From Balamuthia mandrillaris (Eukaryota), in NCBI GenBank assembly GCA_031835245.2, contig JAVKOQ020000082.1, forward strand, positions 1-64,000: a DNA stretch of 64,000 nucleotides, in the 5' to 3' direction. Position 1 is the stretch's first letter; each line of letters begins with the position of its first letter. Position numbers and translations under genes: made by a program. The notes under the pieces were generated by a model. The model searched no databases and was not told the DNA's origin. It worked only from the letters and a program-made list of their open reading frames with translations. Positions 3,364-64,000 of this stretch are shown one piece after another.

Positions 3364-3886
3364 GCGTTACAAGCGGTAGACTGGAAGCACAACCTTGCGC
3401 GGAGAGGATGACGGTACCAATTGATTAAAGTAGCATTACAGGTGACGCGGATACAAAAAAGGCGGCGAAAACGAGTTCCGTTGGTTCGCCGATTTTGCGC
3501 TTTTATCGTCTGGCCAGGACGACACGAAATGTCAGCTTTCTGGCATTCCCAAAGGAAAGAATAAACCAATAAAAAAAGAAAAGGTAAGTTGCGGAGTTGC
3601 CGACGCTCGTCGCAGGAAACTCGACAAAACGTCAGCGAGCGCCACGTACGCACCCACCACCGCTACAGGTTGTTGTTCTGTCATTTCGGCAGCAGCAGTT
3701 GTAAGCATTGCTATAGCCACTTTGTATTTTTTTTTTTTTTTGCTATAGCGACAAATTTCTCGGCAGGAAGACTGAAGTTTGTTGGAAAACGGAAGGAAAC
3801 AGAACCAGAGTTCACGAAGCTTTCTTTTTCTTTTATTCTTTCTTCGTCTTTTTTGACATTTCGTTCGAACCGTAAAACCGCACGCC

Positions 3887-43800: not shown

Positions 43801-44999
43801 TCCTTCACTTCCACGGGCTCCAAGAACTCGATCACGGGTCCTTTAGTAATAAGGGAGGTGAGAAGAAGAAGAAGAACGAAGAAGAAGAACGAAGAAGAAG
43901 AACGAAGAAGAAGAACAAGAAGAAGAACAAGAAGAACAAGAACAAGAAGAAGAACAAGAACAAGAAGAAGAACAAGAACAAGAACAAGAACAAGAACAAG
44001 AACAAGAACAAGAAGAGAGAAAGGAGCAAACCAGAACACTGGACAGCCTTATCGAGAATGCTTTGGTAGGCGTCATGAGTCCACTGGCTGGCCAGCTTGA
44101 GGAAGGACAGGTCTCCCACTTTATTGAGGTCGGTCTCGATGCTGGCCTCCATTTCCTCTCTTGGCAAGGCGTATTTGGCTCGAGAGACGACATAGATACG
44201 AAGCTGCGAGGTTGAGTCCGGAGAGATGGTTCCTTTAGAGCGATACACTAAATAAACAGAAAGAGACAGGTCAGTAAAAAGGAAGTAAGAGAGGAAAAAA
44301 GAAAAAAGAAACCTTGCACGCGATAGTTGTTGTATGTGCCCTCAGTGGCGAGGTAATGCCGTCCGATCCTATAGTGCCACAGATCAACAACAGAACAAAA
44401 AAGCATAGAAGGAGAAGAGAGAAGCAGACAAGTAGAAGAGAAGCAGAGAAGGAGAGGACGAAGAGACAAGCAAAGAAGCAGAGAGAACGAGAGAAGCGGA
44501 GCAGCGAGGAGAGAAGAGCAGCAAAGCAGCAGAGAGCGTTACTCACTTCTCTTCAATGGACATGGCGGGAGATTGAGCAGAGCCAGGAACGCTGTTGCAC
44601 ATGAAGATGGCCTCGTCCTCCGTTTCGTGCTTGATGTCGATCTTGATCTCGCCGCCGGTGACCATGGACAACATCTTGGAGGCAAAGATGGACTGAATGT
44701 GCTGCGCTATGAACGAAGCGGTGTACTGGTAGAAGTAACTCACGTCGAGTCCCAACTTCCTGCAAACGAAGAAAGAAGAAAGAAAAGGAAGAACGTTTCA
44801 TCAAAAAAAAATGATCAAAACAAAAAAAACGTTACAGCAGCCAAAAAAAAAAAAGAGGGAGAAAAAAAAAGTACTGAAAGAACCAATCGACTTCGGAGTC
44901 GACCACGGCAGCGTTGATGTAACCATCCTTGCAGATCAACCGCTTGACTTCCTCCGCGAGAGCGACAAGGTCTTTCTGCGTCGTTATAATCTGCGACAT
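40859..44999 (-). CDS. GDH2: NAD-specific glutamate dehydrogenase (large GDH2 type), multi-exon
   Basis: FRGFHVRFRDIARGGVRIIRS, ENYNLALTQQKKNKDI, FLGPDEGTA, GGIPHD.YGMT, QTGGPDGDLGSNEI, FVPCGGRP, IVEGANLF, NKGGVTSSSLEVLAAL. Confidence 0.95.
43860..44015. repeat. Intronic (AAG/AAGAAC)n compound microsatellite
   Basis: Purine-rich repeat on + (pyrimidine-rich on the sense strand) inside a GDH intron. Confidence 0.9.
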
Positions 45000-45574
45000 T
45001 GTAACTCTCCCTTTGCTCTTCTCGGAGTTTTTGTTTTGTTTTTGAGACTGTATAGAAGAACTATAGAAGAAAGAAAAGAAAGAATGAAAGTTGGGGTGAA
45101 GAAAGCAGAAAAAGAACAGCCGCTCTGGCCCTCCTGGAAGCACCTAAAAAGAAAGCACGAGAAGAGAGGTGGAACCGGGCAAATGGAAAACGGAAACGGA
45201 GAAAGCCAAGAATGGCAGGATTATGCCACTTTAGGACGTGAGAGAGGACACGAGATTATCCATCGCCACATGAATCGCGTGGTAAGGCGGATGTGAGAGA
45301 GGACGTGAGATTGGTGGCATTTCCGCCATTTTCGGACGGGAGAGCGGAGATAGATGCAACGGAAAGTACGCGTGAAAGTTCCCTCAATTCGAGTTGGAAG
45401 GTAGCTCAATTGGGGTGATAGGCCGAGTAGAAAAGAATCAGGAACCCCTGTCGGTTTGTCCTTTTGTTATCATCCCCCTAACATCCACTTTTGCTGTAAG
45501 CGCGCTCGTCTAACCCAAAAGCCATCCTTCTTTCGGTTCATTTTCGTTGTGTTTCGTTCTCGTGCTCCATTGTT

Positions 45575-47026
45575 TCAGAGACAGTCTTCCCACAGGGACA
45601 TGAAGGCAGAGCGGTCCAAACCGGAGATGATCCTGAAGGTGCAGGGGGCACCGGGCTCCACCCCTTGACCCCCGCTTCGGTACCAATCCACCACGAGCTG
45701 TCCTCGGCAAAAACGCCCGCTCAGCTCCACGGAGGCGTGATACACCTTGGCTTTGGTGATCATCTTTGGGTTGAGCGCCACGGCAACGGCTAACGTATCG
45801 CACATGGTGAACTCTTCTTCTTCCTGTTCTTGCTCTTTGTTGGTATTGTTGTTGTTGGTGCTTTTGCGATAGAGTTGTTCAAACTTGAGGGTGATGCCAC
45901 GCATGAAGGCTCTCCGTTGCTGTCTCAGTGGGTCTGCCTCCTTTTCGTCACCGTCCTTTGAACTTGGTTCGTTGTTGGTTTGAGCTTCGTCTCCTTTGAT
46001 CCAAAGGTCGTACCAGGCCCAAGGGATATTGTACTTTAGTGTTAACTCCCAACTTACCATGTTGACGGGAATGCCCTATTTTTTTCAAAAAATCAGATAA
46101 CGAACTCGAAGAGAAGAGAAGAGAACGATGAAGAGAAGAGAAGAGAAAGAGGGGGAGAGCAACTCGAAAGCTTTCAATAACGATGTGGGCGGCCTCAGGG
46201 TCGCACAGAAAGTTGTATTCAGCAGTCCAAGAGGCGTTGCCCTTGCCCTTGCTGGTGCCTCCCATGAAGATGATGCTTCGCACCTTGGTCGCTATGGATG
46301 GGTCCATACGCACCGCCAATGCCAGGTTGGTCATTGGACCCAGCATCACTATATATCAAGTGTTGAACATCAGTTCTTTGCTCTCTCACTCACTCACTCA
46401 CTCACTCACTCTCTCTCTCTCTCTGTCCAAAGCAGGAGAAGGAGAAGGAGAAGGAGAAGCAGAAGCAGAAGCAGAAGGAGAAGCAGAAGCAGAAGCAGAA
46501 GCAGAAGCAGAAGCAGAAAGAAGAAATTACATATGGTAAAACGATTTGGATGCCGGTTGATCATGTCCACCAAAGCGTTGACGGCATGAACAGGACTGGC
46601 CGTTCGAGAGGGAGGTGGAAGGCTGGAGGTGTAGTCCCCAAGTCCATCGGTGCCATGCCCTGGCCAGCTCTTGTCCTGTTCGTGACGCCCAATAATTGGC
46701 CCTTTGGGGAGAGGCTATGAGAACATGTTTTTCTTTTATTCTTGTTTTGCAAGAGAGAGTCAAAAAAAAAACGAACCCGCAGCTCCTGTGAAGAAAGGGA
46801 TGGCCTCAGGCCCTTGATTAACCTCTGGAAAGAGCTCCAACACTCGCGCTACGTTTTCCGAGGCCTGGGCGACGCGAACGTTGCCAAAGACGGTGGTGAT
46901 GGCGCGCACTCTGGCTTTGTCGCTGTGGTACAGCGCCAGCATCAACGCGGCGGCGTCGTCGATGCCCATATCCGTGTCGATGATCAGCTCCGCCCCTCCT
47001 TCATCTTTCGCTTCTTCTTTCTCCAT
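45575..47026 (-). CDS. Inosine/uridine-preferring nucleoside hydrolase
   Basis: IIDTDMGIDDA (DxDxxxDD), WHGTDGLG, LGPMTNLALA, AEYNFLCDPEAA, CDTLAVA, RGQLVVDW. Confidence 0.93.
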
Positions 47027-47139
47027 CTTTCGTTTCTGTGGTTCGATCGATCCCCAACAGCGAGCCACCAATGGAAAATCAAACAACGAGTTGCCCTGTC
47101 GACAAAAAAGGAACCGAAGAAACGGAAAGGGAAAAAAAG

Positions 47140-47367
47140 GGCAGCCAAAAAGTCCCTGCGCTTTCCCTGCTACTTTCAGCGGGGAGAATAAGTGTCGACA
47201 AGGACCAGCATCAAACCAAACCATTGCGCGTTGGTCAGGTGAACACCGTGAACGGAGAGCAAGGCTGCGCCTAGCGGAGAGCGGCAAAGGTACCTTCCCT
47301 CTCACCACGGTGTTCATCAAGGACTGCTTTGGGAGCTGCTGCTGGCCATGCACTCTAGCTAGGTTTT
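47140..47367 (+). ncRNA. Putative structured ncRNA of unknown class
   Basis: A closing helix (47141-47155 with 47321-47339) encloses three hairpins, including a 13-bp stem (47238-47250/47306-47318). G-U wobbles favour the + strand; a T4 run follows at 47364-47367. Confidence 0.4.
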
Positions 47368-47676: not shown

Positions 47677-48110
47677 ATGGAAGAGGTGGAGAGGATCATC
47701 GCTGTCTTCAAGCAGATCGACGTTGATGGAAGTGGAGGTACCTCTTATTTTTTTTTTAAAAAAAAACGAAAACCAAAAACCACCGCTTTTTTTTGTAACG
47801 AAGGTCTAATAAAACTAATTCGAAACGGGTTGCTTTGCTTGATTATTTTTTTTTTGAAAAAAAAGTGGTGGACCGATCAGAGTTTGAACAGGCGGTGACC
47901 CAGCTGGAGAAAGACAAGGGCACCCCCGAGCACCTCATCCCCGAGATTGTGGAGAAAAAATTCAGGAAGGCCGACAGGGATGGCTCTGGCACTGTGGATA
48001 TGAGCGAGTTCCTCCGCAGCTACTACGATATTTTCGATGCCGAAAGAAAGGAAACCGCCAAAATCGTGGCTGAGTCTTCTGGTTTGGTTTCTCCCCCTCC
48101 CTTCTCTCAT

Positions 48111-48146
<36 letters not shown>

Positions 48147-50703
48147 TCATCGTTCTCTTCTCTTCCTTTCTCCTTTCTCTCCTTTTCTCTTAGTCATTCT
48201 CTCTTCTACTCTTCTCTTCACGCTCTCACATATACAAACAAAACAGGTCTGAGCGAGACAGAAGCAGAGCAACTGTTGCAAAGGTTCGAGGAATACGATC
48301 TGGACGGTGATGGCGTTATTGGTAAGAACGACAACCTCAGCCATTTCTTTCTTTTGCAGACTTCTGTTTTTTTTTCTCCTCTCATGCAACACACCGTTTT
48401 TCTGCGTTGTGTAAATCAACTTTCTTCTTTGTTTTCCACACGTTTTCTTTTTCTTTCCTTCTTTCTTTCTTTCTTTTTCTTGACACGTTATAACAAGCAA
48501 ACCTATTGTTGGTAACCTATCTTTGTTCTCACACGCAACACGAAAATATAACGAACAGATCAAGACGAGTTCTATCAGCTGAAAGCCGAATTAGCACCTC
48601 ACGTCTCCAAGTTGCTGGTAAGACAGGACAGCAACAAGCTATTCAGAAAAGCCGACAAGGACAAGACAGGCGCTCTCAGCAAGGCGGAGTTTCTTGAAGC
48701 CGTTTCTGGTCTCCTTGGTCAGTCTTCCTCTTTGGGTGACAGCAGTGGCGGTTCATCCTCTTCAGGTATGAGCGCAGACAGCGTGTGGAACGAGTTCACG
48801 GAGGCCGACAACGTGGTGGCCATCCTGCAACGCTTTGACGAGCTGAAAGAGATCTGCGGCGTTCCAGCCGGCGCCACCGCAGCGCAGCTCTACGATGCCA
48901 TCAAAGCCAAGACCCAAGCCAATTATCGCAGCAAGGTCCTGTGGAAGCTGCTTGACGTTAAGAAAGCCGAGGCCGTTTACAAACCCAAACCTGGGGACAA
49001 GGAACTTAGAGTGTTGATCGTGGGTGCGGGACCTGCTGGCCTGAGAACTGCGGTGGAGGCCCTGCTTTTGGGCGCACGTGTGACTATCTTGGAGAAGAGG
49101 CTTAAGTTCACGCGTCACAACTTGCTTCACATCTGGGACAGCTCTATTCGTGATCTTAAGAACATTGGAGCCAAATATTTCTTCCCTCAATTCTGTACTG
49201 GAGGAATCAAGTGCGTGTTTTTTTTTTCAACGCTCTCTCTCTCTCTCGCGTCCTTTCTTATTTCTCTTTCTTCAATTTATCTAACATACGTTTTGTTGGC
49301 TCAGTCACATTGCCATCAGAAGGTTGCAAACGCTGTTGTTGAAGGTGTGTTTGCTGTTGGGAGCAAGGTACTACCCTCGCGTGGACTACCAGCGCACCGT
49401 GGAGGACAGCGGCAGCGACCTCTGGAAGGCCGAAGTTACCAGCAAAGGAGCTGCCCCCAAAGATGAAGATCTTTTGTTCAACGTAATCGTTGGCGCTGAT
49501 GGACAAAACTCCAAAATAGCGGCAGACTTCCATTTTGAGCGAAAGATAACTAAAGGAGGATTGGCCATTGGCATCACTGCCAACTTTGGTATTGTTTCTT
49601 ATATTTCGTTTCTGTTTCTTTGTTTTAACTGTTGTCATAACAACGCGCAGAGAATAAGCAAACCAAGGAAGAAAACAATCTTCGTGAGTTTGGGTTGTTG
49701 GCGGTGTACAACCAAGGCTTCTTCAAAGCGCTTAACGAGAAGTACTCCATTGACCTCGAAAACTTGGTGTACTACAGAGGAGAGACACATTACTTTGTCA
49801 TGACCGTCAAAAAGCAAAGGTTAACCATCATTACTCGTTCTTCTGCTTGTTCTTTCTTTTTCTTTTCTTTTTTCATCGATTCTTGTTTTTCTTCCATTTT
49901 GTCTTTTCTTTCTTTGCTTTGTAATCTTCTATGCGAATTTTCTTCGATACTAACCCTACGTGTTGTTTTCAAAGTTTGTTGGCCAAAGGAGTGTTGAAAC
50001 AGGACAGCCAAGACACACAAGGCCTGGTGGCTCCCAACAACGTGGCCAAAGAGAACTTGGAGCAGCTCTGCCGTGAGGTCGCCCTCCATGTTGGGCTTCC
50101 CACCAGCGTTTCCTTCTCCAAGAACAGCCGTCACAACAATGATGTTGCCATTTTCGACTTTTCCAAGTAACTCTCGTCTTTTTCTTCTTCTTTTTTTCTT
50201 CATCTTCTTTCTTCTTACATATTTATATAAACAACAACTTAGCAAGCAAGTATGTACCGAACAAGCCAAATTGTTTGGAGCTGGTATGGTAGAGTTAGGC
50301 GTATCTGGTGGGCCTTCTAGCTCCTCTGCAGCCGCTGGTGGTCCCCGCCAACCACTTCTCGTTTGTCTGGCCGGCGACTCGGCCATCGAACCCTTCTGGC
50401 CTTTGGGCACTGGTTCAGTCTTTCTCCTCTTCTGCTTTCTTGTTCTCTAGAAACTAAACTCGTTCTTCTGAAACGACAGGAGCGAATCGTGCCATTTTGG
50501 CGGCGCAGGATGCTGCCTGGATGATGAAGCGCATGAAGGAGGGAGGGGAGAAAGAGGACCCTCACAAGCTCAGGGAGGAGTGGGGCAGCTATTACAAGAT
50601 CCTGATGACCGCCGAGCAGAAGGACTTGGAAAAGAACTTTGGCAAGCATACCATGGACCCCTCCACACGTTACACCAAGAACACACTCTCCCACTTCCAT
50701 TGA
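47677..50703 (+). CDS. EF-hand x4 plus MICAL-type FAD monooxygenase (F-actin methionine oxidase family)
   Basis: EF loops DVDGSGVVDRSE, DRDGSGTVDMSE, DLDGDGVIDQDE, DKDKTGALSKAE. MO motifs IVGAGPAGLRTAVE, LEKR..FTRHNLLHIW, LAIGITANF, IDLENLVYYRGETHYFVMT, DVAIFDF, GDSAIEPFWPLGTG. Confidence 0.9.
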
Positions 50704-51629
50704 AACAACCCTTTCAACGTTGCGGGACCAACCCTTCCATCTCCTTCGTTTTCTCCTTTGTACTATTTTTTAATATCTTAATTTTTCCTATAAAATATTG
50801 TCCACAAAAAATTTGCTGTGCGAAATTTTTCCACGAATGCGCGTTCTAAATTATTAAAATTCCTAAAAATAAATTCTTGCGCTGGCAATGAGGCGGTGTT
50901 TTGCCGGGACGTACAATGTCCACGAGTTTTACGGCAATTTTTCAACCTGTTAGAGGTGGACAAATTGTACCCCTAACCGTCTTCACCGTAAACAAAACGG
51001 ACCATAATAAAGTAAATACACTTTTGCATTGCGGTGACCACAAAAAAAAAGAACCACAAGAAAAAGAAGTGAAAAAAAAAACTAAAAAACAAAGAAGCTG
51101 GTACACAAAAAAAACCCAAACAGAACACGGGAACCTTGTAGGGTACAGCAACAACACCGCCGCTCTTGTTTTTTTTTGTTTGTTTGTCTCAGTTCTCAAT
51201 TTTTTTCTCCGTCATTATTCGACAGATTCCAGAAGGGGAGAGAGAGAGAGAGAAAAAAAGCATCACACACACACTCACGGACGGAGTGTGGTGCCGTTTT
51301 AGCTCATCCCTCTCGTTCTTCGCTGTTTGTTGTTTCAAGACACTGTACCGTTTTTTTTTTCATTCTTCTATCAGTTAAGGTTCGTCCCCTTACTTTTTCT
51401 TGCTGGTTTTCTTAATGATGACATATTTGACTTTGCGTCGCCTCTTCCATTCAATCTCCATTTTGCTTCTTTCTTTCTCTTTCTTTCTTCTTATTTTTTC
51501 TTTCATTGTTTGGCTAATTTTTTTTGTTCTTTTTTTTTTCCCCCTTCTTTACTGCAACAACAGTTTTTTCTTTTCTTTTTTTTTTTAAAAAAACAAAACA
51601 GAGAAGTTCGCCCTCTCTGCTTTTGAACT

Positions 51630-54600
51630 ATGTCTTTTTCGGGCTTTGGTTTTGGCGGGGGCGCGCCGGCCTTTGGGTCTGCTCGTTCTACTCCTCCGTC
51701 CGCCATCCCGCCGGTCACTACAGCCCCAACGCAGTCCGCGTTTTACCGCTCCACCACCAGCTTTGATCAAAACGCAACTGCTTCTTCCTCTGCGAACCCT
51801 TATTTAGTGGGCTCCACCGCTTCTGCTTCTTCTCCTTCGACCATTCCTTATCCTGTAATGCCCCCTTCTGCAGCTTCTTCTGCTTCAGCTTCCCCTTTGT
51901 CAGGCCTGGCTTTTGCCTCACCTCTTAGCCACGCCTCGGGAGTGCTACAGTCCATCAAAAAGAATGGACTGGCTCAGGACCCTGCCGCCTTGATCGAGCA
52001 GCTGCAGCACATCAAGGACGCCACCACCAAGATGGAGTTGAGCGCCTCGACGGTGGACTCTCTCGCCTCCACGGAGGTTGCTCTGTGGCGGCGCTATCAA
52101 AGGCAGCTGGCCCGGTTGGAGGACGCGGCCTGGCTGCAGCTCAGCGAGAAAGCCCTTCAACCCTCTCACATGACAGGCCTGCATAAGCTCCTTGGCATGG
52201 AGCAGAAAGAACTAGTCTCAGCACAAGAGAAGGCCGACGCCAAGAATAGACGCGAGACGTGCAAGCTGCTGTTGAAGGAGAAGGCCAAGTTGATAGGCAT
52301 TGTGGAGGAGCTTGGAGTGGAGGAAGCAGGCAACCCCACCAACAAGGAGGGACCAAACTTTTCTCTATCATGGAACGAAAACCAAAAGACTCTTTCTCAG
52401 CTGTTGGGTCATCTCTCTTCCTTCACCGCTAAAACGAACAGCTTGGACCTTGATGTAGAGACACACGCGAAGTTGATGCAGTACGTGAACAAATCGGTGG
52501 AAAGAGAACGGCAGCGACAAACCAAGGTTCGTCTCTCTCTGTCTCTGTCTCTCTGTCTCTCTCTGTCTCTCTCTTTCTCTGTCTCTGTCTCTCTCTCTCT
52601 CTCCCCTCCTTCTTTCTCTGTTTTTTTTTTGCGAAACTTGTTCTAAATGCCTGAATGCAGCGCCGTTGGAAGTATCGAGCTGCTACCGCTGAGCCCCAGG
52701 CGCAAAGTTACAGCAACACAACCAAAGTCCCGTTCATAGTATCGGTTTTTAACCGGACGTTTCCTCTGTTGGTGCAAACATTGCACAAATCGCAACACAC
52801 GACTACTGCGGAGAGCATTTTCAATCGATTGCGGGACGTGATCCTAGAGCAAGAAGACTTTGCAAGCGTCAAATCTGCTGCAATGCAATTCTCCGCCGCT
52901 TCATATGTTTCAAGCAACGTTCGCGCTGACAAGCCGAGTCAAACTTCGTTTGGGTCTGCTGTTGGCTCCTCAACACCGTCCACATCTCCGTTTTCGGCTC
53001 CCTCTGCTTCTGCTTCTTCCTCTCTTCTCACTTCTTCTTCTACTTCGACTACTACCCTGGCATCAGAAGAAAGCGAACCTATTCAAGAAGAGGAGCATGA
53101 GCACAACAAATATGCGAATGTTTGCTATGCCGCCAAGTTGTGGTTGGGTCAGTTGAAGACAACTTGGAGCACAACTCTTCGTGCACTTGATGCAAATGCT
53201 GTCCAAGCAAAAGTTGGCTTACTCTTTGCATTACTCGGTCAAATCTCTGGCCTCTTTGTAAGCAATTTTCTTCCTCTCTCTCTCTCTCCTCCCTTTCTTT
53301 CTTGTCGTCTCTCTCTTTCTCTCTCTCTCTCTTGCTCTCACCTTTTTTATTTGCCAATACTGACGTACCAGTTTTCACATCAGTTGTCTTATTACTTGCA
53401 TGCAACATATCCAGCGGCACCTGTTGAGAGTGCCTTCACTGCAGACTTGAGCAAAGTAACCCCTGAACTGCTTATCTTGCTTTGCCACGACATCTTGATC
53501 CCCGCTGTCTCTTCTCTGGGCGAAACAGATGATGAATTTTGCAGCACCTTTCTCAAGCTCATCATCCCGCTGTACCAACACAACATCGGAGCTGTTGGTT
53601 CGCCAGATAACAGCAATAAGGCGGCAGCGAGCACCGAACCGCAGACGTGTAAAGTTACTGATGAGGAGGGGGTTATCAAAGTCTCCCTTCCGGACCAGAA
53701 CTGCAATACCAACAATAACAGCAGCAACAGCAAGTCTTCTACTACCAATTCATCCTCTTCAGAGGATCAATTCCTCGCCCAGGATGATGCTCATAATGTG
53801 TCTCCTCTGTTCTTGGGACACAATCTTAGTGAGGAACCTGCCGAGTGGTCACAACCCCTTAAGACTTGGTTGCACACGTTGCTTCCTGCTAACTCACCCT
53901 TTGGAAGCTCTGTTGATTTTGCTGCGGAGATCGTTACTGATAAGAAAGAGAAGAAAGAGCATGCGCTACCTCCTCCGCTGCAACACTCACAAAAGCGGCC
54001 AGAGCAAGCAGTGGAAACCACAAAGAGCAAAGATACTCAGATTCAAGCTGCAACTGCTTTGACTTGTCACGTTTTGATACGGGGTTCTATGGAAGATATT
54101 CTCGCCGTTGTCAAGTCATTTGTGTTACCACAACAGGAAAGCTCTTCTTCGAAGGATGAGGACGAAGATGAACACGATAAGTTGCGTGACATTGCAAACG
54201 ACGAGGATGAGAGCCTGAGCATTGTGCCTACCACAAAAGCCAGGACTGCTACTGTTACCTCCTCTCCAGCCGATCTGATTCTTGATATAGCCCCATTCTT
54301 GTATAAGTGGGGCCAAAAGACCACTTCTACTAAACAATTAGGTTCGTTCTCCTTGCTTTGTTCCTTTTTTTTTAATTCTTTTGTCCCCTTTCTCCTTTTT
54401 ATTTGTCCTCGTTGCTTTCTTCGATCATATTTAACGCTGTTTTTTTTTTTTTAAAACAAACAACTTGAAGCGCTCCTGTGGAACTCCTTCAAATCTATGA
54501 TGACCCAGACTAAAACTACTTATGCCTACAAAGACGGTTTTCTCTACCTTCATAACACCGGGGGCCTCTTTAAAGTTGGTACCGGTCAGCATGGCACCAT

Positions 54601-57600
54601 CGCCAATCGAATCTACAATGCCGTTCAAGGCTATCGCTCCAAAGAAAAGGGTTGGCTCGCTGTCGCTGGTGATAAGCTCTATTACCGATCTAGCAATACT
54701 GGCTCTGCCTCCCTCCTCGCTCTTAACCTGGAGACATTGACGGTAGGCTGTCCTTAGCTTGCTATTTTCATATCTACCCTTTTGTTTAACATGAGTTTGT
54801 TTGGGTTTGCTTTGGTTTGATAGGAAGAAGCAGAATTTAGGTCACCAACGTTTAAAGCAGCGTTACCTCAGCTATCTGCTCCGCCAACTCCAGCTGAAGA
54901 TCAAACGAAAAGAAAGAAAATGGAAGAAGAGGAAGAAGCAAAGGAAAAAGAGCAAGCATCCCCTTCTTCGTCTACCCCCGCCGCTCCTACTGCTACTGCA
55001 CCTATCGATGCTTCGGAATCACAACAGAACAACCAAAACGACACCGAAAGTAATACAGAACAAATACCGATGAGTAAACTGAAGATCATTCAACTAGACA
55101 AATCGTCTCAGCACTTCCATCCTGAGAAAAACGAGCTCACCGAGTTTCGGTCTCCCCTTTTGTCTGATGGGAGATATCTGTACATCGTAAGCAAACTAAC
55201 CTCTCCGCAGGAGCAACAGCAACAGCAACAACAAGCCAACAAACCTGCTTCTAGCAATGATCTCTTGTCTCCCAGTGCAGCTGCTGCGAGCCTGTTTCCT
55301 CCCAAGAAATTTGGAACAGTGCCTCAAACCTCCTCTGGCTTCACGCTTTTCTCCTCTTCGTCTTCCTCCTCGTCGGACAGTTCTGCCTCTTCCCAGTCAA
55401 GTGGCTTTGGTGCATCAACACCATCCACTACTACTTCCTCCTCCTCCTCGGTTACGTTTGGTGGATTCGGAAGTGGTTCTGGATCTTTATTTGGAAGTAG
55501 CAGTAACTCTTCTTCCTCCTCTTCATCATTTGGTGGTTTTGGCTCTTCTTCACCCTCGTTGTCATCTCCTGGTTTTGGCTCGTTGGCTTCTTCTTCTTCT
55601 TCTTCTTCCCCATCGCTTGGAGGATTTGGCTCTTCTTTACCCTCGTTGTCATCTCCTGGTTTTGGTTTGTTAGGCGCCACCTCAGCTCCATCCAGTTCCT
55701 TCAGCTTTTCCAACGCCACCACTCCCTCATCTTCCTTTGGGGGCTTCGGTTCAACAACAAGTTCCTCGTCTTCTGCTTTCGGTGGTGGCTTCGGTTCGAC
55801 AACAAGTTCCTCGTCTTCTGCTTTCGGTGGTGGCTTTGGTTCAACTGGTGGAGGATTTGGCAGTACTGCTACAAGCTCGTCCTTTGGGTCAGGTTCTTCC
55901 TTTGGAGGCTTTGGTTCAACAACAAGTCCCTCTTCTACTTTTGGTGGTGGATTTGGTTCGACCGCTGGAGGATTTGGAAGTACTTCCTCCTCCTCTGCAT
56001 TTGGTGGTTTTGGTACTGCCACTACTCCTTCGTCTTCTTTTGGCGGCTTAGGAGCCCCGCAAACCTCCTCTTCATCTTCGTTTGGCGGCTTCAGCTCTGG
56101 AGGAAGCTTTGGAGGCAGCGGCTTTGGAGCGTATACCACCACTGGAGGATTTGGTTCGACACTCTCCTCCTCTCCGTTTGGAACTCCATCTTCCACTTCA
56201 GGCGCGTTTGGATCGACTACTACTCCTGCCACCTCTACTCTTGGTGGATTTGGAAGTTCTCCTTCTTCAGGTGGCTTTGGATTTGGCTCAACTCCTTTTG
56301 GCACTGAATCTCCTTCTTTTGGTAGCGGAGGTTTTGGCAGCAGCTCTTCTTCCTTTGGAGGGGGTTTTGGAAGCACTTTTGGCGGTGGCTTTGGGTCCAC
56401 CACTCCATCTTCTACTCCTGCTTTCGGTTTTGGCTCGACTGGAGCAACAATTTCTTCTTTGTCTTCTACCCCTTCTTCCGGAGGAAGTGGTGGCGGCTTA
56501 GGGAGCCGCGCTACTGGCTCTATCTCCTCTGGCGGGAGTGGCGACTTTGGTTCCTCTGCATTTGGTGGTGGAGGTTTTGGGTCGACCGCTGCTTCCCTTT
56601 CTTCGGCCTCCAGTGTTCCACTGGGAGGAATTGCAACTTCTGTTCCATCTTCTACCACCGCCACTACAAGCCCAAGTGATGGCGCACCTCAAAGAGAAAG
56701 GCTATGGATGATTGGCGTTCCTACTACTTATGATGAAGAGAGGATTAGGGAGCTGCTCGTTCCTTTTGGTCGTATTACCTTCTTCTTCATGGCCCGTGAT
56801 TCCAGCGGACAATTTACTGGCCGTGTTCTTGTGGAATACAGAGACATTACCTCTCGAGGAGAAAGCGGAACCGAGGAAGAGCGTCCCGTTGTAGATCGTG
56901 TAATCGATGCTCTGAACGGATTCCCCCTGGAGGATTCCACGCTGTCCTTCGAGAGAGTGCCAGTGCCGCAGGATCAACCTACCACCACTAGCACCCCTCT
57001 TTTCGGTTTAACATCTTCTTCTCCTTCTTCGGATAGCACTACTTCTTCCACTTCCATTTTCGGTAGCGCGACTACGCCCTCTCCTACTTCCGCGCTTCAG
57101 ACCAACCCTGCTCCATTTGGAATACCGCTGACCACTCCCCCATCCACCGGCACTTCATTGCCGATCCCTGCTGCACCAGCGCCTTCTTCTTTGTCCTCTG
57201 CTTCTTCTTCGTCTGCTTTTTCATCTTTCCTAATGAGCAGCGAGGAGAGAGCCAAGAAAGAGGCCGAAGACAAGTATATTGTTGAGATCTTTGATCCCCA
57301 ACTGGAAGGCATGCCCTTGATTCGCCGCGTGCAACTCAAGAATCCAACTGGTCTCTTCTCTTTCTTTATTCCATATTTTACTCTCTCTTCTCTCTCTCTC
57401 TCTCTCTTTGCTATATGTCTTTCTCTTTCAATTTGTACTAAGATCTCTTTGTTTGTTTGTTTTTAGGTTTGAAACTGTTCCTTAAGAACAACGGCACAAC
57501 TGTCTTCACTCCACCCGCTCCCAGGGAATGGGCCGGCTTCGACTTTCAGGTCATTACTGCCATGCCTCAGTACAGCCACTATTCCTTGGAGGAATTGCGT

Positions 57601-59966
57601 GCATTGTACTATCAACCCGGCATTGAGATTCCTCCCTTCACTTTAACCCAAAAGATCCTTCGTTCCGGCCACTTCTTCACTGATGGGCAATATCTGATGG
57701 TGGTTGTGGAGACTAACAGTAGCACCGCTCAACCACAACTGGATGACAGCCTCTCGAACAAAGACCAGTCGTACATATGCCGTTTGTTCTCATTGGCGGA
57801 TGGAGCTCACATTTGTGACTCCATCTCGGATCGAGTTCTTCCGAATTTCCATCTGGGTAAATTCTCTCTCTCTCTCTCTCTCTCTATCTTGCTCTTGCTC
57901 TTTCTTTTTTTTTTTTAATCGTCTTCAACTACAAAAAGGCTTTTCTCTGTACGACTACTTGATGTCACCTGCGAACATTCAAGAGCTACCAGAATGTGCG
58001 CTTCCCCAAAAGATCCACGACAGGGAGCGGGAATACCAAGCTAGAGAAGAACAAGAGAAAAGAAAGGCTCAAGCTAAAAAACTCGCAGCTGTTGGCATTG
58101 AAGCAGTAGGTAAAGAAGAGGAAACAGAACTAGAAGCAACATCAAAGAGTGCAGAACCAGAAGTTGCTGGCAAAGAAAAGAGGCCCGAAGAAAGCAAGGA
58201 TAAGGAGAAGGAGGAAACTGCCTCTTCTTATGCTATCGTACCGCCCAGACAACCTATCTCAGCGATGCACGCATCAATATCCATTTTGTGCTTCCTCGAC
58301 TTCTTCTCCAAGCATTTCCAGGCCACCAGAGAATTCAAGGACAAGAAGGAACAAGACAAGGACAAGTCTGACAAACCTTCAACAACACCCTCTTCTACGT
58401 TTGGCTCTAGTTGGGCATCTTTCTCTGCCAACGCGCCAACAGGTGGTTTTGGAACCTCTGTTGCATCATCAACTGATGGTGTTGCCAAAAAAGATGGTGA
58501 AGAGAAAGAAGGCAAGACAACGGAGGATGACCTTCAAAATATCTGCATCTACGACCATAGCGGCCAAAAGATCTTCACGTTGACCTCTTCGCCGCAGGTG
58601 TTTGCGCATCTTCTTTCTATCATCGAGTTCTATGGCACGCTCTTCTTCCCTGCTGTTGCTCCCAGCTCCACTTCAGCTTTCATCTTCGCGTCCTTGGCTG
58701 TTAACGACGTGCGTGCTACATGGAAAGAATGTGTACAGAAAGCCCATGTGCTATTGACCAGCATGAAGATCTTTCGACGAGCTCTCCATCACGCTCTTCA
58801 CTCGGAGCGTAAGTTTGTGTTCAGCTTATCCAGCCAAACGAATGCCGCTGAGACGGAAGAACGTTGCAAGCGACATATTCGTGACTTATTGATGCGTTTC
58901 ATCTCTGGGGTCGAGTTGGGCACAACTCTCTCTAGCTTTTCTGTGGAGCAGAAACAGATAGTTGCGGAGAGTCTTCGATTGATACAGAAAACAAGCTGCG
59001 AAATCTTGGTCTCTGCCTTTGACTACTTTTACACTTCGAAGGAGCTTTGCGAGCTACTCTGCGAGTTGTTGCAAGAGCTGGGTTCCGCTTCTTCTTCCAG
59101 CAACAACTTGATTCATGCGAGAGGCTTGCTTAGCCACATGTTAGTGGATAAACTCACCAAAGCCTACTTCTTGCCGCTCTGTCACATCAACCAGAGGACC
59201 GCACTCGCAGAACAAGTAGCGCGATTAGAGAAGTTACATAAGACCTTGGTTGAAGAAGCAGCACCAAAGCAACAAGAGAGTAAGGAGGAGCCAGAACAAC
59301 AAGTGTCACAAGAAGAGGAGAAGAACAAGAAAGAGAAGCCCATAGATGACTCGGAGAGCAACGCGAAAAAAGAAGAAACGGAAGAAGAAGCTCAACATCT
59401 ACTCAAAGAGAGCATTAGCTCTTCCGAAGAAGCGTCTTCACAGCAAGAGGCATTGATGGGCATTGTTGGACTTTTGGTCAAGATTGTTGCGCTCGAGTTC
59501 AAGAACCACTTGGAAACGGCGATGATCCCTTCTCAAAAGTTGCCATTCGTGACCGCTTCACAAAATCTCGCTATGTTGAGCAGCTTCCAGAAGAATATCT
59601 GCGAGTTGAGCACCAAAGATCTCCTTGACAACAACTCAGCTGCTAATGCAGCTCTTCTTGACAACGCTTCTCTGTTCCGAGGTCACAATGACACCAAGTC
59701 TCCTACTTCTGCTGCACCGTCTTCACACAAGGACCAAGTAGAAGCTCTTCTTACACAGCACAAAGAAAGGGCTAAGCTATTTACGCTTCGCATTTTGGCG
59801 GGGTACACGAAGATTATCACAAAACAAGCCACCATTGTTCTGGAGAGCATGTTCAAGTACCTCCAGGAACACCCATTGCCTCCTCCTGCCTCTTCTACCC
59901 GTACTATCGAGACGTACACATCTACACCCACTCCTGATGGTTCTACGCTTGGTCGTCACCTGTAAG

Positions 59967-60015
<49 letters not shown>

Positions 60016-63000
60016 CCTCCTCCGTTAGCTCTGCTCTATCTATGTTCGCTGTTCTCTGCTCTTCACTTCGCTCCTAACAAAGAACATTGTTGCAGTGCAT
60101 CAACCCGCAAAGACACAACAGACGAAACTCCAAACATTACGCATATTTTGCAAGAGTCGTTTGTTGGGGTTTTGCTACCTTCCTTGGTGGCTTCCATGAA
60201 CACGTTCGCCCAGCACACATCGCTCTCTGCCCAAATGCTTCCCATTTTTCTGCCCCTGTTGGAGGTGTTGGACAAAGTGTGTCAGCTCGTTCCAGAGGCT
60301 CAACATGCAGAAAAGGCCTTCATTTCCAGCATCTTAGGAGGCAATTATCAAACCAGTGGGCTTTTGTATGTTTTCCGCTTCCACTCCTCATTTCTGCACT
60401 TTTGCTCAATTCTTCTCTCTTTCTTATGTTTTTTTTAAAATTTATTGTCAACTCTCTTGTGCTGTGTATAGGGACTCAGTGACACCCTATTCATGGTTGA
60501 TGAAGCTCCACAAGACTCTGTCGTTCTTCTGTGGCACTGCTGCTGCTCGCCTAATTCAAGGCAATAGCACTACCGACGAGGAAAACAGGTACAAGACCTG
60601 GATAGAGTCTCGCCTCTTCAAAGGTGGTCTGGAACGTCCATCACATCAACAAGGTGGTTTGCACCTGACCCGAGCACAATTCTTGGAGTCACTCTTGTCC
60701 TTGCAGCCAGCCGACTCGCAAGCAACTCTGCTTGCCGCTTGGATGAACGAGAATATAACTGCCAAGAAGCCTCTTGGCAAGATGGGTGGAGATGAAGGTA
60801 TTCATTTCTTCTTTCTCTTTGATCCACATAGCAAATTCTCACCAAACAACAACAAAATATAATAACAGTGAGCCAAGCAGAACGTGCTTGCGTTGCCGCA
60901 CTGCTTAAGCACAATAATCTAGTAAACGAAGCAATGACATTTGCTCACTGGCTAGAGGGTCACAAGGACTCGCAATCAGAAAAAGGCGAGATTGTTGCTC
61001 CTCCCGGTTTGCAGAAAGTTTGGGAACTGGCTTACGATCTACGCGTGCATCTTATTCGAACAGGGCAACAAATGCAAATGGCCCAGGCGGAGAATGCTAA
61101 ATCTAGGTGATGTGTCGTTCTTCCTCTCCTTGTTTAATATTTGTTGTTTTAACTGACTGACTGTCATAATTGTCTTCGTTCTTGTTTAGGGCTGAGATTT
61201 ACACGGAGTTGGCAAAACCTATCGTGGAGAAGGCTCGCTTCTTGTTGAGTTTGGCTGCGCCCGCCCAGAAAAAAGTAAGACTGAATGTGTCTGCTTCTGG
61301 AGAAGAGGAGGAGAAGGATGAACTGGAACACAAAGACCGCAACGCCTCTCCCAGTTTGTCCGGCCGCGACTCTCGTCAACGTCTCACACGATCCACTTCT
61401 TCCGCATTGAGGCGTTCGGGAAGTCCTCCCAGCACCCCACGGCAGCTCTCTCGAGCTCGTTCTTCCAGCATCATGGAAAGAAAGAAGCGCAAGCAAAAGG
61501 TGGTAGATGCCTATGCCCTGGACGATAGTTCTACTCTGGAGGGAGGGACTGGTGGTTCTAGCGAGAACCAAAGAAGAGTGCAACAATCTTTCAAGATTTG
61601 GCGCTTCGTGAAAGAGATTTCCAGCGACCAAGTAGCTCAAATCACTTCTCCTGTTCGCCCTTCTTCCGCCTCGTCTGCTGCATCATCAACTTCGGCCTCT
61701 CCATCTACTCCCTCAGAGGCGAGCGGTGCTTCGAACTGGGCCGCCACTTCGCCAATTTCTGTCGCGTTCAAACAAGGAGGCGAACGCGGTAGCAACAACA
61801 ACTCTGCCGTTTCGGTTTCTAGCAGCATCACCTCCTTCCTTCAATCCAAGGATATCTCCGTGGAAAGCCTTCATCAGGTGCTGCAACAAAGGAAGGCTCG
61901 CGGCAAGCAACGCGTGCTGGGCCTCAAGTCGATGCAAACTGCTTTGGCCAATACGCAGACCATCAGTGTGAAGCATGATCTCTTCCGTTTCTTGCTATAC
62001 GGCATTCAGAACTTCAACAACACCACCCAACATCAACAACAGGACCAAGTTGCATTGTCTCCATCTGCCATTAAGTCCTCTCACTTCTTAGACAGAGTGG
62101 AAGGATGTGGTCCTCACGTAGCAGCTAAGCTTCAAGAGACGTTCTACTCCCTCTTTGACAGTCTGTTGAGCTATCTGCAGACAAACCTGGTGGAAGAGGC
62201 TCTACTGCGCTTCCTCACTGTTGAGATCTCTACCACCACCACCACCGAGAGCAACACCCTTGGAAGGGAGTTGCAACGCTTCAAGCTGCGTGCACGTAAG
62301 AGGGTTAGCCTCTTGTGCGCTAATGTTATCAAGATGTTGGTGCTGGAGCTTTGGGCTACTTCACAGTTCAGAGATACGGATCATAAGTTCTTGCAAAAGA
62401 TTCAGATCTTTTCCGTGTTGTTGACTCTGGTTCATCAAAGTAGAGAGGAAGATGAAGAAGAGAACCAACTACAGCTGCACCAGCAACAAAGCAACAACCA
62501 CGCAGGTGCACAAACAGCAAGTACTTCAACCACGCAAGACATAAAGAGCAGTACCACTACCACTTCTCCTTCCTTCTCGCAAACTTCGGGCATGTCTTCG
62601 TCTTCCTCTTCTTCATCACCATCCTCTTCGGCTCCATCCTTCATAATGCCATCCTTCTCCCTCGTTAAAGCTCAAAGAGAACAAGAAAACAAGGACAGAA
62701 GAAAAGCCCAAAAGGCATCATGGGTTACTCTCAAGCTCATGCTTACCCTCTGTTTGGGTTTGCAAAACGACAAAGAGCAAAGCGAGCTCAACGCCAGAAA
62801 TAAGAAGCTCTACGAGCAATACGTGGACCTCAAAGAAGATGAGGAACACGAGGAGGCGAAATTGCTCAAAGAAGAAATCGGAGAGTTGAACTCCTTTCAA
62901 ACCTCTCTATTTGACCTCATCTTGCAAGAGCTGGAACGTTCCATGCAACTTTTCAAGAAATACGAGAAGCAATTGCGTCAGCAACACGAACACGACAAAG

Positions 63001-64000
63001 AAGAGTCCTCGTTGTTTGCAGCCAATGCGTTCCTTCCCTGGCGCAAGTATGCAGTGGACAAGCTAGACTCTGCTGAGTTTTACAAAGCAGAGAAGAAGTG
63101 CTATGAATGGCTTTGCTTGGTCTACCCTATGACTAGCTCCAAAGTGGTTTGCAGCTACATCGCCTCCTCCTCCAGGAAGTCGATGGAGCTTATTTTCACG
63201 CTTCTTCTGTTGGGCTCTCTTCGCATCCAACGTCTCGTCTTCCGTCTTTTGAGGAGGCTTCTTCCCTTCCTAAAACCTGAGAGAGCGGATTATCTATGGA
63301 GAAACGCCACTCAAGGATTGAACCTACGTTCATCGACTTCTGCTTCCTCCGGCGCCCAGTCTGCATGGACCTCGTTGAATGCAGAGATGGCGGGCAACGA
63401 GGTGGGCATGATTGGTTTCTTGTTGGACGCCATTGGCAGCGCTTTGCTCAACGCATGTCCTCTGAATGATAATCATCTCACGCAAAGCGATATTCGAAAC
63501 TCGGCCATACGTTACTTGGCTTCACTAAAGAGCGAAAAGAAGAAAGTCGTGGACGCTGCGCAGTCTTCTTCATCTGCCTTAAGTGGTTCTACTTCCTCAT
63601 CTCCAACCTCATCGTCGGCATCATCATCAACTTCATCATCTGGGACGCTCTTTTCTTCCGCAACAACGGAGCAAGTAGGAAGCTTGTTTTCTCTACCTGC
63701 AACGACGTCTCTAGAGAACTCTACAGATGATCCTCTACGAATGACGAAACGTAAACTCGCTCTGCATCACCAATCACAACCACCTACTCCGACGTTGTCT
63801 GACCCCTTCGCCTCTCCCTCTTACGTGCCACCGGTGGTGGAGCAGCAAAGACGAGAGCAACTTGAGAGGAACTTGTCCTCCACCACTCGTGCGCAATCTT
63901 CGTTCGCGTTCCATAACGCACCCCGCATTTCGCTTTCTTCAATGCCTCCTCCTCTTCCTCCTTCGTCTTCCTCTCCGTCGGCTCCTTCCTCTCCAACTGG
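51630..64000 (+). CDS. Giant HECTD4/MYCBP2/HERC-like protein (N-terminal part; runs off window) with FG-repeat, RRM and GLEBS-like insertions
   Basis: Chain of spliced + strand exons, open from ~61190 to the window end. DGFLYLHNTGGLFKVGTGQHGTI...GWLAVAGDKLYYR is HECTD4/PHR-like; WIESRLFKGGLE, AERACVAALLKH and PIVEKARFLL are HERC-like. No catalytic domain is visible in the window. Confidence 0.7.

What the first reader, a model, noticed from the sequence alone, without database searches (positions are those of the whole stretch)
55300..56600. Nucleoporin-like FG-repeat domain inside a giant HECTD4/HERC-like protein
Seen: ~430 aa of nearly charge-free Ser/Gly/Thr sequence with roughly 45-50 FG dipeptides (SSFGGFGS, AFGGGFGS), in frame between propeller-like segments (SDGRYLYIV ... 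KYIVEIFDP ... TDGQYLMVV). The protein also starts MSFSGFGFG. Known: such domains in Nup98/Nup214 phase-separate and bind transport receptors, and are not a known feature of HECTD4/MYCBP2/HERC proteins. Inference: a ligase-like scaffold that partitions into nuclear pores or FG condensates, or captures karyopherins or FG-binding viral capsids.
Basis: partly seen in the sequence, partly recalled or inferred. Interest (0 to 1): 0.85.

Follow-up and report, generated by a model that had tools for sequence, protein, structure and literature searches.

The report
Giant ligase-like protein mimics nucleoporin Nup98
A gene, likely from an amoeba, for a giant relative of the HECTD4/MYCBP2 ubiquitin ligases is spliced into an RNA that also encodes a nuclear-pore-type FG-repeat region, an RRM-type domain and a Nup98-like docking motif, so the protein likely holds the mRNA-export factor Rae1 and likely carries a predicted ligase activity to nuclear pores or similar condensates.

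Summary
Confirmed, with two additions. The FG domain (55310-56581) has 47 FG in 424 aa and 0.9% charged residues, close to Nup98 FG-domain values but Ser-rich and without GLFG. It lies in one stop-free 11-exon model of at least 3769 aa. RNA reads join its exon to the propeller exon before it and to the exon after it, cover the FG region, and show no skipping. FG+RRM (685 aa) replaces a short hairpin, and GLEBS fills the next loop, of a predicted five-bladed propeller. That propeller and three further blocks are shared, in order, with protist SPRY-HECT giants, HECTD4 and MYCBP2/Highwire. None of 109 related proteins (mostly fragments) has an FG domain. Only the MYCBP2/Highwire proteins have a GLEBS, at a different site, and PHR proteins are known to bind Rae1. 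Best reading: a ligase-type scaffold that independently gained a Nup98-like module, holding Rae1 and transport receptors. Not shown: the catalytic end (beyond 64000), binding, localisation, true orthologues.

The parts
51630..64000 (+). Giant gene, 11 coding exons in the window, one stop-free frame of 3769 aa, open at the window end. Introns 52527-52660, 53258-53383, 54342-54470, 54743-54823, 57351-57466, 57857-57938, 59962-60095, 60366-60471, 60798-60868, 61107-61189
   Evidence: GT..AG, frame kept. Introns 54743-54823 and 57351-57466 are shown by RNA; the other 8 are inferred from frame and, in part, homology
51630..52526 (+). Exon 1: FG-type start (3 FG in 16 aa), S/P/A linker, helical region
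   Evidence: Atlas lead to Nup54 (0.83) is not backed by Pfam or PDB. Weak, non-significant fit to the family's own N-terminal helices (iE 0.68). Link to exon 4 not tested with RNA
54471..55204 (+). First part of the beta-propeller shared with HECTD4/MYCBP2 (aa 825-1035; exon 4 and start of exon 5; includes a long acidic loop)
   Evidence: 91 relatives at E<=1e-3; homologue-only HMM positions 3-153, iE 1e-25; fold of homologue P0022
55205..57259 (+). 685-aa insertion in one propeller hairpin (aa 1036-1720): FG domain, RRM, S/T/P linkers
   Evidence: HMM gap between positions 153 and 156; motif-to-motif distance 699 aa against 15-18 in six homologues and 124 in a seventh
55310..56581 (+). FG domain, 47 FG in 424 aa, GGFG/SSFG type, 0.9% charged
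   Evidence: RNA coverage and frame-keeping indels in another strain
56699..56959 (+). RRM, closest to U2AF65 RRM2; RNP1 reads TGRVLVEY where U2AF65 has KGYAFCEY, so two aromatic positions are lost
   Evidence: Pfam RRM_1 26.4 bits, cut-off 20.7; PDB 2u2f E 1.5e-4; low-confidence model with beta-alpha-beta-beta-alpha-beta order; 3 of 3 listed strain changes synonymous
57260..57346 (+). Propeller resumes (KYIVEIFDP and the following strand, aa 1721-1749)
   Evidence: HMM positions 156-183, weak on its own (iE 0.4) but in register; matches the homologue motifs printed
57544..57615 (+). GLEBS-like motif FQVITAMPQYSHYSLEELRALYYQ in a 60-aa loop insert (aa 1750-1809); the glutamate pair is at 57589-57594
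   Evidence: Pfam Nup98_GLEBS 23.4 bits, E 6.3e-5, below cut-off 27, only family hit; 14 of 26 residues identical to Nup98 in PDB 3mmy/4owr/7byf/7vpg; iE 1.2e-4 with an HMM of three MYCBP2/Highwire motifs; exon joined to the FG exon in 6 RNA reads
57643..57961 (+). Last part of the propeller (FFTDGQYLMVV..., aa 1810-1888)
   Evidence: HMM positions 195-263, iE 2.2e-9; 37-38% identity to P0042 and P0022
60143..63700 (+). Scaffold blocks B, C, D (aa 2571-2855, 3043-3263, 3290-3669), in the same order as in protist SPRY-HECT giants; parts also in HECTD4 and MYCBP2
   Evidence: Homologue-only HMMs, iE 1.9e-31, 6.2e-28, 5.1e-17. The match stops at position 226 of 533 of block D; the SPRY domain of the homologues sits at about 389-533

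Best explanation
This is one spliced gene for a giant HECTD4/MYCBP2-type scaffold whose predicted propeller carries an FG domain, an RRM and a GLEBS motif; the GLEBS likely binds Rae1, the FG domain likely binds transport receptors and other FG domains, and together they would place a predicted C-terminal ubiquitin ligase at nuclear pores or Nup98-like condensates. Shown: exons 4-5-6 are joined in RNA; the FG domain matches Nup98 FG domains in count, length and charge; the flanks belong to the family; both inserts sit at defined propeller loops; the GLEBS keeps its glutamate pair. Inferred: (1) both loops point to the same propeller face (b-c and d-a loops in the model of a homologue; the face convention is recalled); (2) Rae1 docks on the GLEBS as on Nup98; (3) the FG domain lets a protein of more than 400 kDa enter or stick to the FG phase, or captures importin/exportin complexes; (4) Rae1's RNA groove, perhaps helped by the degenerate RRM, brings mRNPs or pre-ribosomes within reach; (5) a HECT domain beyond the window ubiquitinates them or their carriers. 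The module was probably gained in this lineage, independently of the Rae1-binding motif of animal MYCBP2, which lies elsewhere in the protein.
For: RNA joints on both sides of the FG exon, FG bins covered, zero raw-read depth at the four listed intron positions. FG 47 in 424 aa, 0.9% charged, FILVM 16.5% against Nup98 medians of 43 FG, 549 aa, 2.5% charged and FILVM 13-17% (PMC4283134 passages). GLEBS: only Pfam hit, E 6.3e-5; 14/26 identical to Nup98; score like the motif in MYCBP2 (22.6 bits), and PHR proteins bind RAE-1 through a small conserved motif (PMC4806438 passages). The EE pair forms the two key salt bridges to Rae1 (PMC3783196 passages). Nup98 181-224 is enough to bind RAE1 (PMC2133102 passages). 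Two independent Nup98-like features lie within 300 aa of each other. Family: four ordered blocks; 13 of 24 long homologues have HECT (12 by Pfam, 1 by its source's name), 2 RING. All 10 displayed coding indel events of another strain keep the frame, 6 of them in the FG domain. MYCBP2 is also tied to Ran and RanGAP1.
Against: No ligase domain in the window; 7 of the 24 long homologues show neither HECT nor RING at the thresholds used and 2 were not scanned. The nearest named Balamuthia paralogue, P0098, is among the 7. GLEBS is below Pfam's cut-off (23.4 against 27), and only profile positions 18-35 of 39 align. The FG domain has no GLFG, 45% Ser and 1.5% N+Q in its spacers, unlike the ten Nup98 domains tabulated (Ser 1-19%), and no Pfam family hits it. 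In the FG domain 9 of 16 listed strain substitutions change the residue, two of them an FG phenylalanine (40 of 108 rows were shown). Ser-rich tracts are common in this genome. No pore-anchoring domain was found. The RRM lacks RNP1 aromatics. Animal PHR-Rae1 complexes work at presynaptic terminals, not at pores. No orthologue carrying the inserts was found.
Confidence: 0.45

Rival explanations
1. MYCBP2-like cytoplasmic hub. The GLEBS binds Rae1 away from the pore (microtubules, spindle, cytoplasmic puncta), and the FG domain drives self-condensation or karyopherin capture in the cytoplasm.
For: PHR proteins bind RAE-1 and act with it at presynaptic terminals and on microtubules. A preprint title reports phase separation of Highwire (10.1101/2024.11.03.621782, search listing only). 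No pore anchor was found; the protein is very large.
Against: PHR proteins do this without any FG domain (at most 3 FG per 200 aa in P0062, P0100, P0101). A Nup98-sized FG domain next to the GLEBS points to the transport machinery.
Confidence: 0.22
2. Neutral low-complexity expansion. The loop tolerates insertions, the FG tract is a drifting S/G linker, and the GLEBS and RRM are relics.
For: These loops take large inserts in relatives (Kelch in P0097/P0098, RCC1-like domain in MYCBP2). Ser-rich tracts are common here. 9 of 16 listed FG-domain substitutions are non-synonymous. Three-base indels also arise by slippage, and the one intronic indel shown is 6 nt too.
Against: 47 of 52 Phe are followed by Gly, twice the maximum of 10,000 shuffles; mixed synonymous codons; no other stretch in the window comes near; a GLEBS with its EE pair follows; the RRM passes Pfam's cut-off and its 3 listed changes are silent.
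Confidence: 0.12
3. Integrated decoy. The Nup98-like module is bait for virus or symbiont proteins that attack Rae1-Nup98 or bind FG repeats, and the ligase then tags them.
For: Unrelated animal viruses target the Rae1-Nup98 GLEBS complex (PMC7604486 passages). Earlier unchecked AI notes report FG+GLEBS tails on fungal Mx-like GTPases and BTB proteins (leads only). The module looks lineage-specific and varies between strains.
Against: No amoebal virus protein that targets Rae1 turned up in the searches. Induction by infection and positive selection were not tested; the transcript is present in ordinary RNA runs of unknown condition.
Confidence: 0.1
4. The motif binds Bub3 rather than Rae1 and links the scaffold to the spindle checkpoint.
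For: Bub1, BubR1 and BuGZ bind Bub3 through GLEBS motifs with the same EE pair, and Rae1 also binds the Bub1 motif (PMC9147866 passages). The residues after EELR differ from Nup98 (ALYYQ against LEDYQ).
Against: Pfam reports only Nup98_GLEBS; all GLEBS-type PDB sequence hits are Nup98 chains, none Bub1/Mad3; the ITAM..Y half matches Nup98 and Highwire.
Confidence: 0.08
5. The FG exon belongs to a separate nucleoporin gene, is spliced out, or is a mis-assembly.
For: Reads are 150 nt and no listed contig spans the whole exon; minor isoforms below 3 reads would not be listed. The full-length protein was not found in the protein collection.
Against: Propeller strands flank the FG domain within the same exon; RNA joints on both sides; FG bins covered in two RNA runs; a second strain's contigs show the same layout with the frame kept; one propeller HMM maps in three ordered pieces around the inserts.
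Confidence: 0.03

Closest known systems
Protist giant propeller-SPRY-(PH/ZZ)-HECT proteins (Acytostelium XP_012753523 = P0042; Luapelamoeba P0097; Balamuthia KAL6073674 = P0098)
   Same: Propeller and blocks B, C, D in the same order. P0097 and P0098 are the nearest branch, with weak support (63), and also carry an insert (Kelch) in the loop that holds the GLEBS here.
   Different: None has an FG domain or a GLEBS, and Pfam reported no RRM in those scanned. Their hairpin at the FG site is short. The SPRY/HECT end of this gene lies outside the window.
Animal HECTD4 (fish P0104-P0107)
   Same: Propeller, N-terminal helices and blocks B and D detected; C-terminal HECT in the animal proteins.
   Different: No FG domain and no GLEBS; block C not detected in them; the tree does not group this protein with HECTD4.
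PHR proteins MYCBP2/Highwire/RPM-1 (P0062, P0100, P0101)
   Same: Same propeller and blocks B, C, D; a GLEBS-like motif with S.EELR; known RAE-1 binding.
   Different: Their motif lies about 2000 aa further on, inside or beside a filamin-like domain; their propeller loop holds the RCC1-like domain; they have PHR domains and a RING-type end; no FG domain. No RCC1, PHR or filamin hit in the 8 exon pieces scanned here.
Nup98/Nup116 nucleoporins
   Same: FG count, length, low charge and hydrophobic fraction; a GLEBS near the FG domain.
   Different: Internal loop instead of N-terminal domain; GLEBS lies about 280 aa after the FG domain, behind an RRM, not inside it; no GLFG; Ser-rich spacers; no autoproteolytic/Nucleoporin2 domain found in the pieces scanned.
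RanBP2/Nup358
   Same: Works-like comparison: a giant FG nucleoporin tied to ubiquitin-like conjugation at the pore (its SUMO E3 role is recalled; PMC12246119 seen as search listing only).
   Different: No homology tested or expected; SUMO pathway, Ran-binding domains, animal-specific (recalled).

Membership tests
HECTD4-like giant HECT ligases | N-terminal propeller shared with HECTD4/MYCBP2 | tested here: met
HECTD4-like giant HECT ligases | Ordered scaffold blocks between propeller and SPRY | tested here: met
HECTD4-like giant HECT ligases | SPRY and C-terminal HECT with catalytic Cys | not testable with these tools
   Lies beyond 64000; no genome held; full protein not found
HECTD4-like giant HECT ligases | One clade with animal HECTD4 | tested here: inconclusive
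   23 sequences, 471 columns, deep supports 19-63
PHR (MYCBP2/Highwire/RPM-1) | RCC1-like domain inside the propeller, and PHR domains | tested here: not met
   No RCC1/PHR Pfam hit in 8 exon pieces; that loop holds the 60-aa GLEBS insert
PHR (MYCBP2/Highwire/RPM-1) | Rae1-binding motif | tested here: met
   Sequence only: HMM of three PHR motifs hits the model at iE 1.2e-4 and no other non-PHR protein of 110 searched; different position
PHR (MYCBP2/Highwire/RPM-1) | C-terminal RING-Cys-relay ligase | not testable with these tools
   Beyond the window
Nup98/Nup116 | FG domain of 400-1000 aa, about 43 FG, about 2.5% charge | tested here: met
   47 FG, 424 aa, 0.9%
Nup98/Nup116 | Spacer make-up (G,T,S,A,N,Q,P mix; LFG motifs often dominant) | tested here: not met
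   45% Ser, 1.5% N+Q, 0 GLFG, 1 SLFG against Table 2 of PMC4283134
Nup98/Nup116 | GLEBS with the EE pair | tested here: met
   EE present; 23.4 bits, below cut-off 27; first half of the profile not aligned
Nup98/Nup116 | Autoproteolytic/Nucleoporin2 anchor domain | tested here: inconclusive
   No hit in 8 of 11 exon pieces; exons 8-10 and the unseen C-terminus were not scanned
Nup98/Nup116 | Binds Rae1 and transport receptors, phase-separates, sits at pores | not testable with these tools
   Needs experiments; no Rae1 sequence came from any search, so no complex was modelled
Canonical RNA-binding RRM | RRM fold and profile match | tested here: met
   model of low confidence (pLDDT 55.5), best Foldseek rows U2AF65 at E 0.07
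Canonical RNA-binding RRM | Aromatic RNP1 residues | tested here: not met
   TGRVLVEY against KGYAFCEY in the alignment
Nup53/Nup35-type RRM | Match to Nup35 RRM profiles | tested here: not met
   Only RRM_1 reported at E up to 10 (HMMER filters drop weak hits)

The most novel reading that the evidence does not exclude
A ubiquitin-ligase nucleoporin mimic: an ancient HECTD4/MYCBP2-type scaffold that grafted a working Nup98 module (FG phase sticker plus Rae1 dock plus RRM) onto one face of its propeller and acts as a pore-resident checkpoint or baited trap that ubiquitinates mRNPs, transport complexes or viral Rae1 antagonists. Animal MYCBP2 would then be a second, independent capture of Rae1 by the same scaffold family.
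Probability: 0.3. Interest if true: 0.88.

Novelty: new variant of a known kind. Interest (0 to 1): 0.72.

Why it matters
FG barrier domains and ubiquitin ligases are normally separate proteins. Here a Nup98-sized FG domain and a Nup98-type Rae1 dock are encoded inside an expressed ligase-family scaffold. It gives a natural test of whether an FG domain alone can address a very large enzyme to the pore. It also bears on why animal PHR ligases bind Rae1: the same scaffold family seems to have gained a GLEBS twice, at different sites. The comparison further shows that MYCBP2, HECTD4 and protist giants share a propeller whose loops accept swappable modules (RCC1-like, Kelch, GLEBS, FG+RRM). Paper searches listed nothing whose title or abstract start describes this architecture; they cover only the open-licence library.

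Tried and rejected
No genome is held, so the C-terminus was not seen. Homologue search with exon 6: 173 candidates, none significant, lengths 227-2000 only. Two alignment searches reaching 8460 aa gave 17 and 6 proteins, none the gene's own product or an orthologue with the inserts; candidates were capped near 8000, and the alignments scattered parts of the short rows. Metagenome scans: 0 of 215 stretches and 1 of 245, a MYCBP2-like locus without FG. The two best exon-4 hits (P0001, P0002) are single-exon fragments, so their inserts are unknown. Atlas: exon 4 gave only unnamed bacterial clusters; exon 1 gave a Nup54 lead at 0.83, rejected for now because Pfam and PDB show nothing. No solved structure of this propeller family by sequence. 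VIA-align was busy twice, so the fold rests on Foldseek. The tree did not resolve orthology; of the 24 long homologues, P0029 and P0056 were left out. The run search listed no holder on record as RNA; the RNA evidence comes from laying runs X1, X4, X5. Loose read ends near 57193-57227 fall on a 15-nt Ser repeat and were taken as cross-mapping. Grill et al. 2012 is not held, so whether it already calls the PHR motif GLEBS-like was not checked. No complex prediction was run. Earlier-finding look-ups by sequence, place and ligase words were empty.
Full report
Observation. The stretch 55301-56599 encodes 433 residues with 47 FG dipeptides; 47 of 52 Phe are followed by Gly, and 10,000 shuffles give 12.8 +/- 2.9, at most 24. 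From first to last FG (55310-56581, 424 aa) it has 11.1 FG per 100 aa, 0.9% charged residues, 16.5% FILVM, and spacers of 45% Ser, 18% Gly, 15% Thr and 1.5% N+Q, with no GLFG. Its ORF is the densest of 229 stop-free stretches in the window; the runner-up is an LRR gene whose FG comes from its repeat. Mixed synonymous codons and only short, imperfect DNA arrays argue that the pattern is kept at the protein level. Schmidt and Gorlich give medians of 43 FG, 549 aa and 2.5% charge for 666 Nup98 FG domains, and FILVM of 13-17% for ten tested ones (PMC4283134, passages). The domain fits in count, length, charge and hydrophobicity, and departs in spacer make-up.

Gene. Ten GT-AG introns give one stop-free frame of 3769 aa from ATG 51630 to the window end. 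I laid four runs on 54600-57375. Intron 54743-54823 is skipped in a contig of X1 and in 4 and 2 raw reads of X4 and X5, and not in X2, which behaves as DNA. Six X5 reads run from 57352 into letters identical to the first 30 of exon 6. X5 covers 30 of 30 bins and X4 29 of 30, both have zero depth at the four listed intron positions, and no joint skips the FG domain. Depth is low (3-5% of each run was read) and no single record spans the exon. X2 and part of the RNA reads differ from the window: all 10 coding indel events displayed (12 of 16 rows shown, one intronic, two adjacent rows counted as one 6-nt event) are multiples of three, and a further net 45-nt insertion keeps the frame. Of 36 coding substitutions among the 40 rows shown (108 in all), the FG domain has 9 non-synonymous and 7 silent, two of them removing an FG phenylalanine; the RRM has 3 silent of 3 and exon 4 has 4 silent of 5. 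The other eight introns rest on frame and homology.

After the FG domain lies an RRM (56699-56959): Pfam RRM_1 26.4 bits, above the cut-off, nearest U2AF65 RRM2 (E 1.5e-4), with RRM strand order in a low-confidence model. Its RNP1 has lost two aromatic positions, so RNA binding is uncertain. Exon 6 holds a GLEBS-like motif (57544-57615): Nup98_GLEBS is the only Pfam hit of the 51-aa piece (23.4 bits, E 6.3e-5, cut-off 27; E 2.4e-4 for the whole exon), and 14 of 26 residues are identical to the Nup98 chains of Rae1 complexes. It keeps the glutamate pair that in Nup98 (E201, E202) forms two conserved salt bridges to Rae1 (PMC3783196, passages). Nup98 181-224, the half that aligns, suffices for RAE1 binding (PMC2133102, passages).

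Family. Exon 4 finds 91 representatives. The long ones are protist propeller-SPRY-(PH/ZZ)-HECT giants such as Acytostelium P0042, animal MYCBP2/Highwire and fish HECTD4. HMMs built only from homologues match the model in order: propeller (iE 1e-25 and 2e-9), blocks B, C, D (2e-31, 6e-28, 5e-17). The window ends before the place of SPRY. Of 24 long homologues, 13 have HECT (one by its source's name only), 2 RING, 7 neither at the thresholds used, and 2 were not scanned. A tree of 23 sequences puts the model beside a Luapelamoeba and a Balamuthia protein with support 63 and leaves deep branches open. An amoebal source is therefore an inference, and orthology to HECTD4 is not shown.

Where the inserts sit. 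The propeller HMM maps on aa 825-1035 (positions 3-153), 1721-1749 (156-183) and 1810-1888 (195-263). FG+RRM is thus a 685-aa insert in a hairpin; the motif-to-motif distance is 699 aa here, 15-18 in six homologues and 124 in a seventh. The GLEBS fills the next loop (60 aa against 11 positions). A model of homologue P0022 (mean pLDDT 63.5, propeller strands mostly 80-95) is a beta-propeller whose best PDB matches are glutaminyl cyclases and, further down, olfactomedin (that these are five-bladed is recalled). By strand order the FG site is a b-c loop and the GLEBS site a d-a loop, which by the usual convention (recalled) share one face. The second loop holds a Kelch propeller in P0097/P0098 and, on weak evidence for the closing piece (iE 0.008 in P0100), the RCC1-like domain in MYCBP2.

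How unusual. None of 109 related proteins has more than 8 FG per 200 aa, against 29 here; most are fragments, and the two closest are single exons. An HMM of three MYCBP2/Highwire motifs hits, among 110 proteins, only four PHR proteins and this model (iE 1.2e-4). In PHR proteins the motif lies about 2000 aa downstream of the propeller, in or beside a filamin-like domain. A review states that a small conserved motif of RPM-1 and Phr1 binds RAE-1, and that Phr1 acts on Ran and binds SUMO-RanGAP1 (PMC4806438, passages); that the GLEBS-like motif I detect is that motif is my inference, as the primary paper is not held. The different positions suggest two separate gains; relocation of one ancestral motif is not excluded.

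Mechanism. Most likely (0.45) the propeller displays a Nup98-like module: the GLEBS holds Rae1, the FG domain binds transport receptors and the FG phase, and a ligase end, inferred from the family, acts on mRNPs, carriers or cargo at pores or similar condensates. Rivals: a cytoplasmic MYCBP2-like hub (0.22); neutral expansion with relic motifs (0.12); a decoy for Rae1-Nup98 antagonists, which unrelated viruses do encode (PMC7604486, passages) (0.10); Bub3 as partner (PMC9147866, passages) (0.08); separate gene or artefact (0.03). No binding, localisation or catalysis was tested.

Prior art. Seven paper searches (listings and abstract starts) showed no description of an FG or GLEBS insert in a HECTD4-like protein; 'Balamuthia' with 'nucleoporin' gave 0 papers. 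A preprint on the Entamoeba pore has no occurrence of HECT in its main text and reports a Nup98-like protein without GLEBS (10.64898/2026.09.13.750810, passages; its supplements were not seen and could list ligases). Earlier unchecked AI notes describe FG+GLEBS tails on fungal Mx-like and BTB proteins; if right, grafting of this module recurs, which makes the case less unique and the pattern more general. Verdict: real, expressed, a new variant of a known scaffold; it resembles Nup98 in one module and MYCBP2 in its likely partner, and is a member of neither family. Interest 0.72.

Noticed in passing
P0062, P0100, P0101, P0104-P0107 against P0042-type proteins: MYCBP2/Highwire and HECTD4 share N-terminal helices, the propeller and further blocks, in order, with protist giant HECT proteins: one scaffold family with different ligase ends and with different modules in the same propeller loop.
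   Followed up: partly
P0062 2238-2254, P0100 2397-2413, P0101 2594-2609: Pfam Nup98_GLEBS hits the three full-length PHR proteins scanned (E 1e-4 to 0.035), inside the filamin-like match in two of them.
   Followed up: partly
window 51927-52526: Helical region of exon 1: Atlas top hits are Nup54 clusters (0.83, lead only); Pfam and PDB do not confirm.
   Followed up: partly
window 51380-51601: Probable 5'-UTR intron before the ATG (same donor type as introns 1 and 3; no ATG in 51090-51379). Not tested with RNA.
   Followed up: partly
window 51630-58460: Scattered FG outside the domain at aa 6, 8, 15, 396, 671, 1635, 1654, 1673, 2035, 2051, mostly in S/T-rich linkers.
   Followed up: no
window 33233-35947 +: Intronless 904-aa LRR protein with many near-identical Cys-rich 23-aa repeats; its 23 FG come from the repeat; exact sequence not in the collection.
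   Followed up: partly
window 47800-50703 +: Upstream neighbour with EF-hand-like pieces and a GAGPAGL flavin-binding motif; looks like a MICAL-type monooxygenase (label recalled, not tested).
   Followed up: no
window 8849-47365: By motif, recalled and untested: two endonuclease/phosphatase-fold genes (8849, 30197), MOB1-like (14554), single-domain aspartyl protease (19082), glycosyltransferase-like (25655), S28-type peptidase (31021 -), NAD-glutamate dehydrogenase (42467-45500 -), nucleoside hydrolase (45575-47365 -).
   Followed up: no
L001 6776-8198: Metagenome locus with the same propeller followed by RCC1-like pieces, so MYCBP2/Highwire-like; no FG domain in the ORFs listed.
   Followed up: partly
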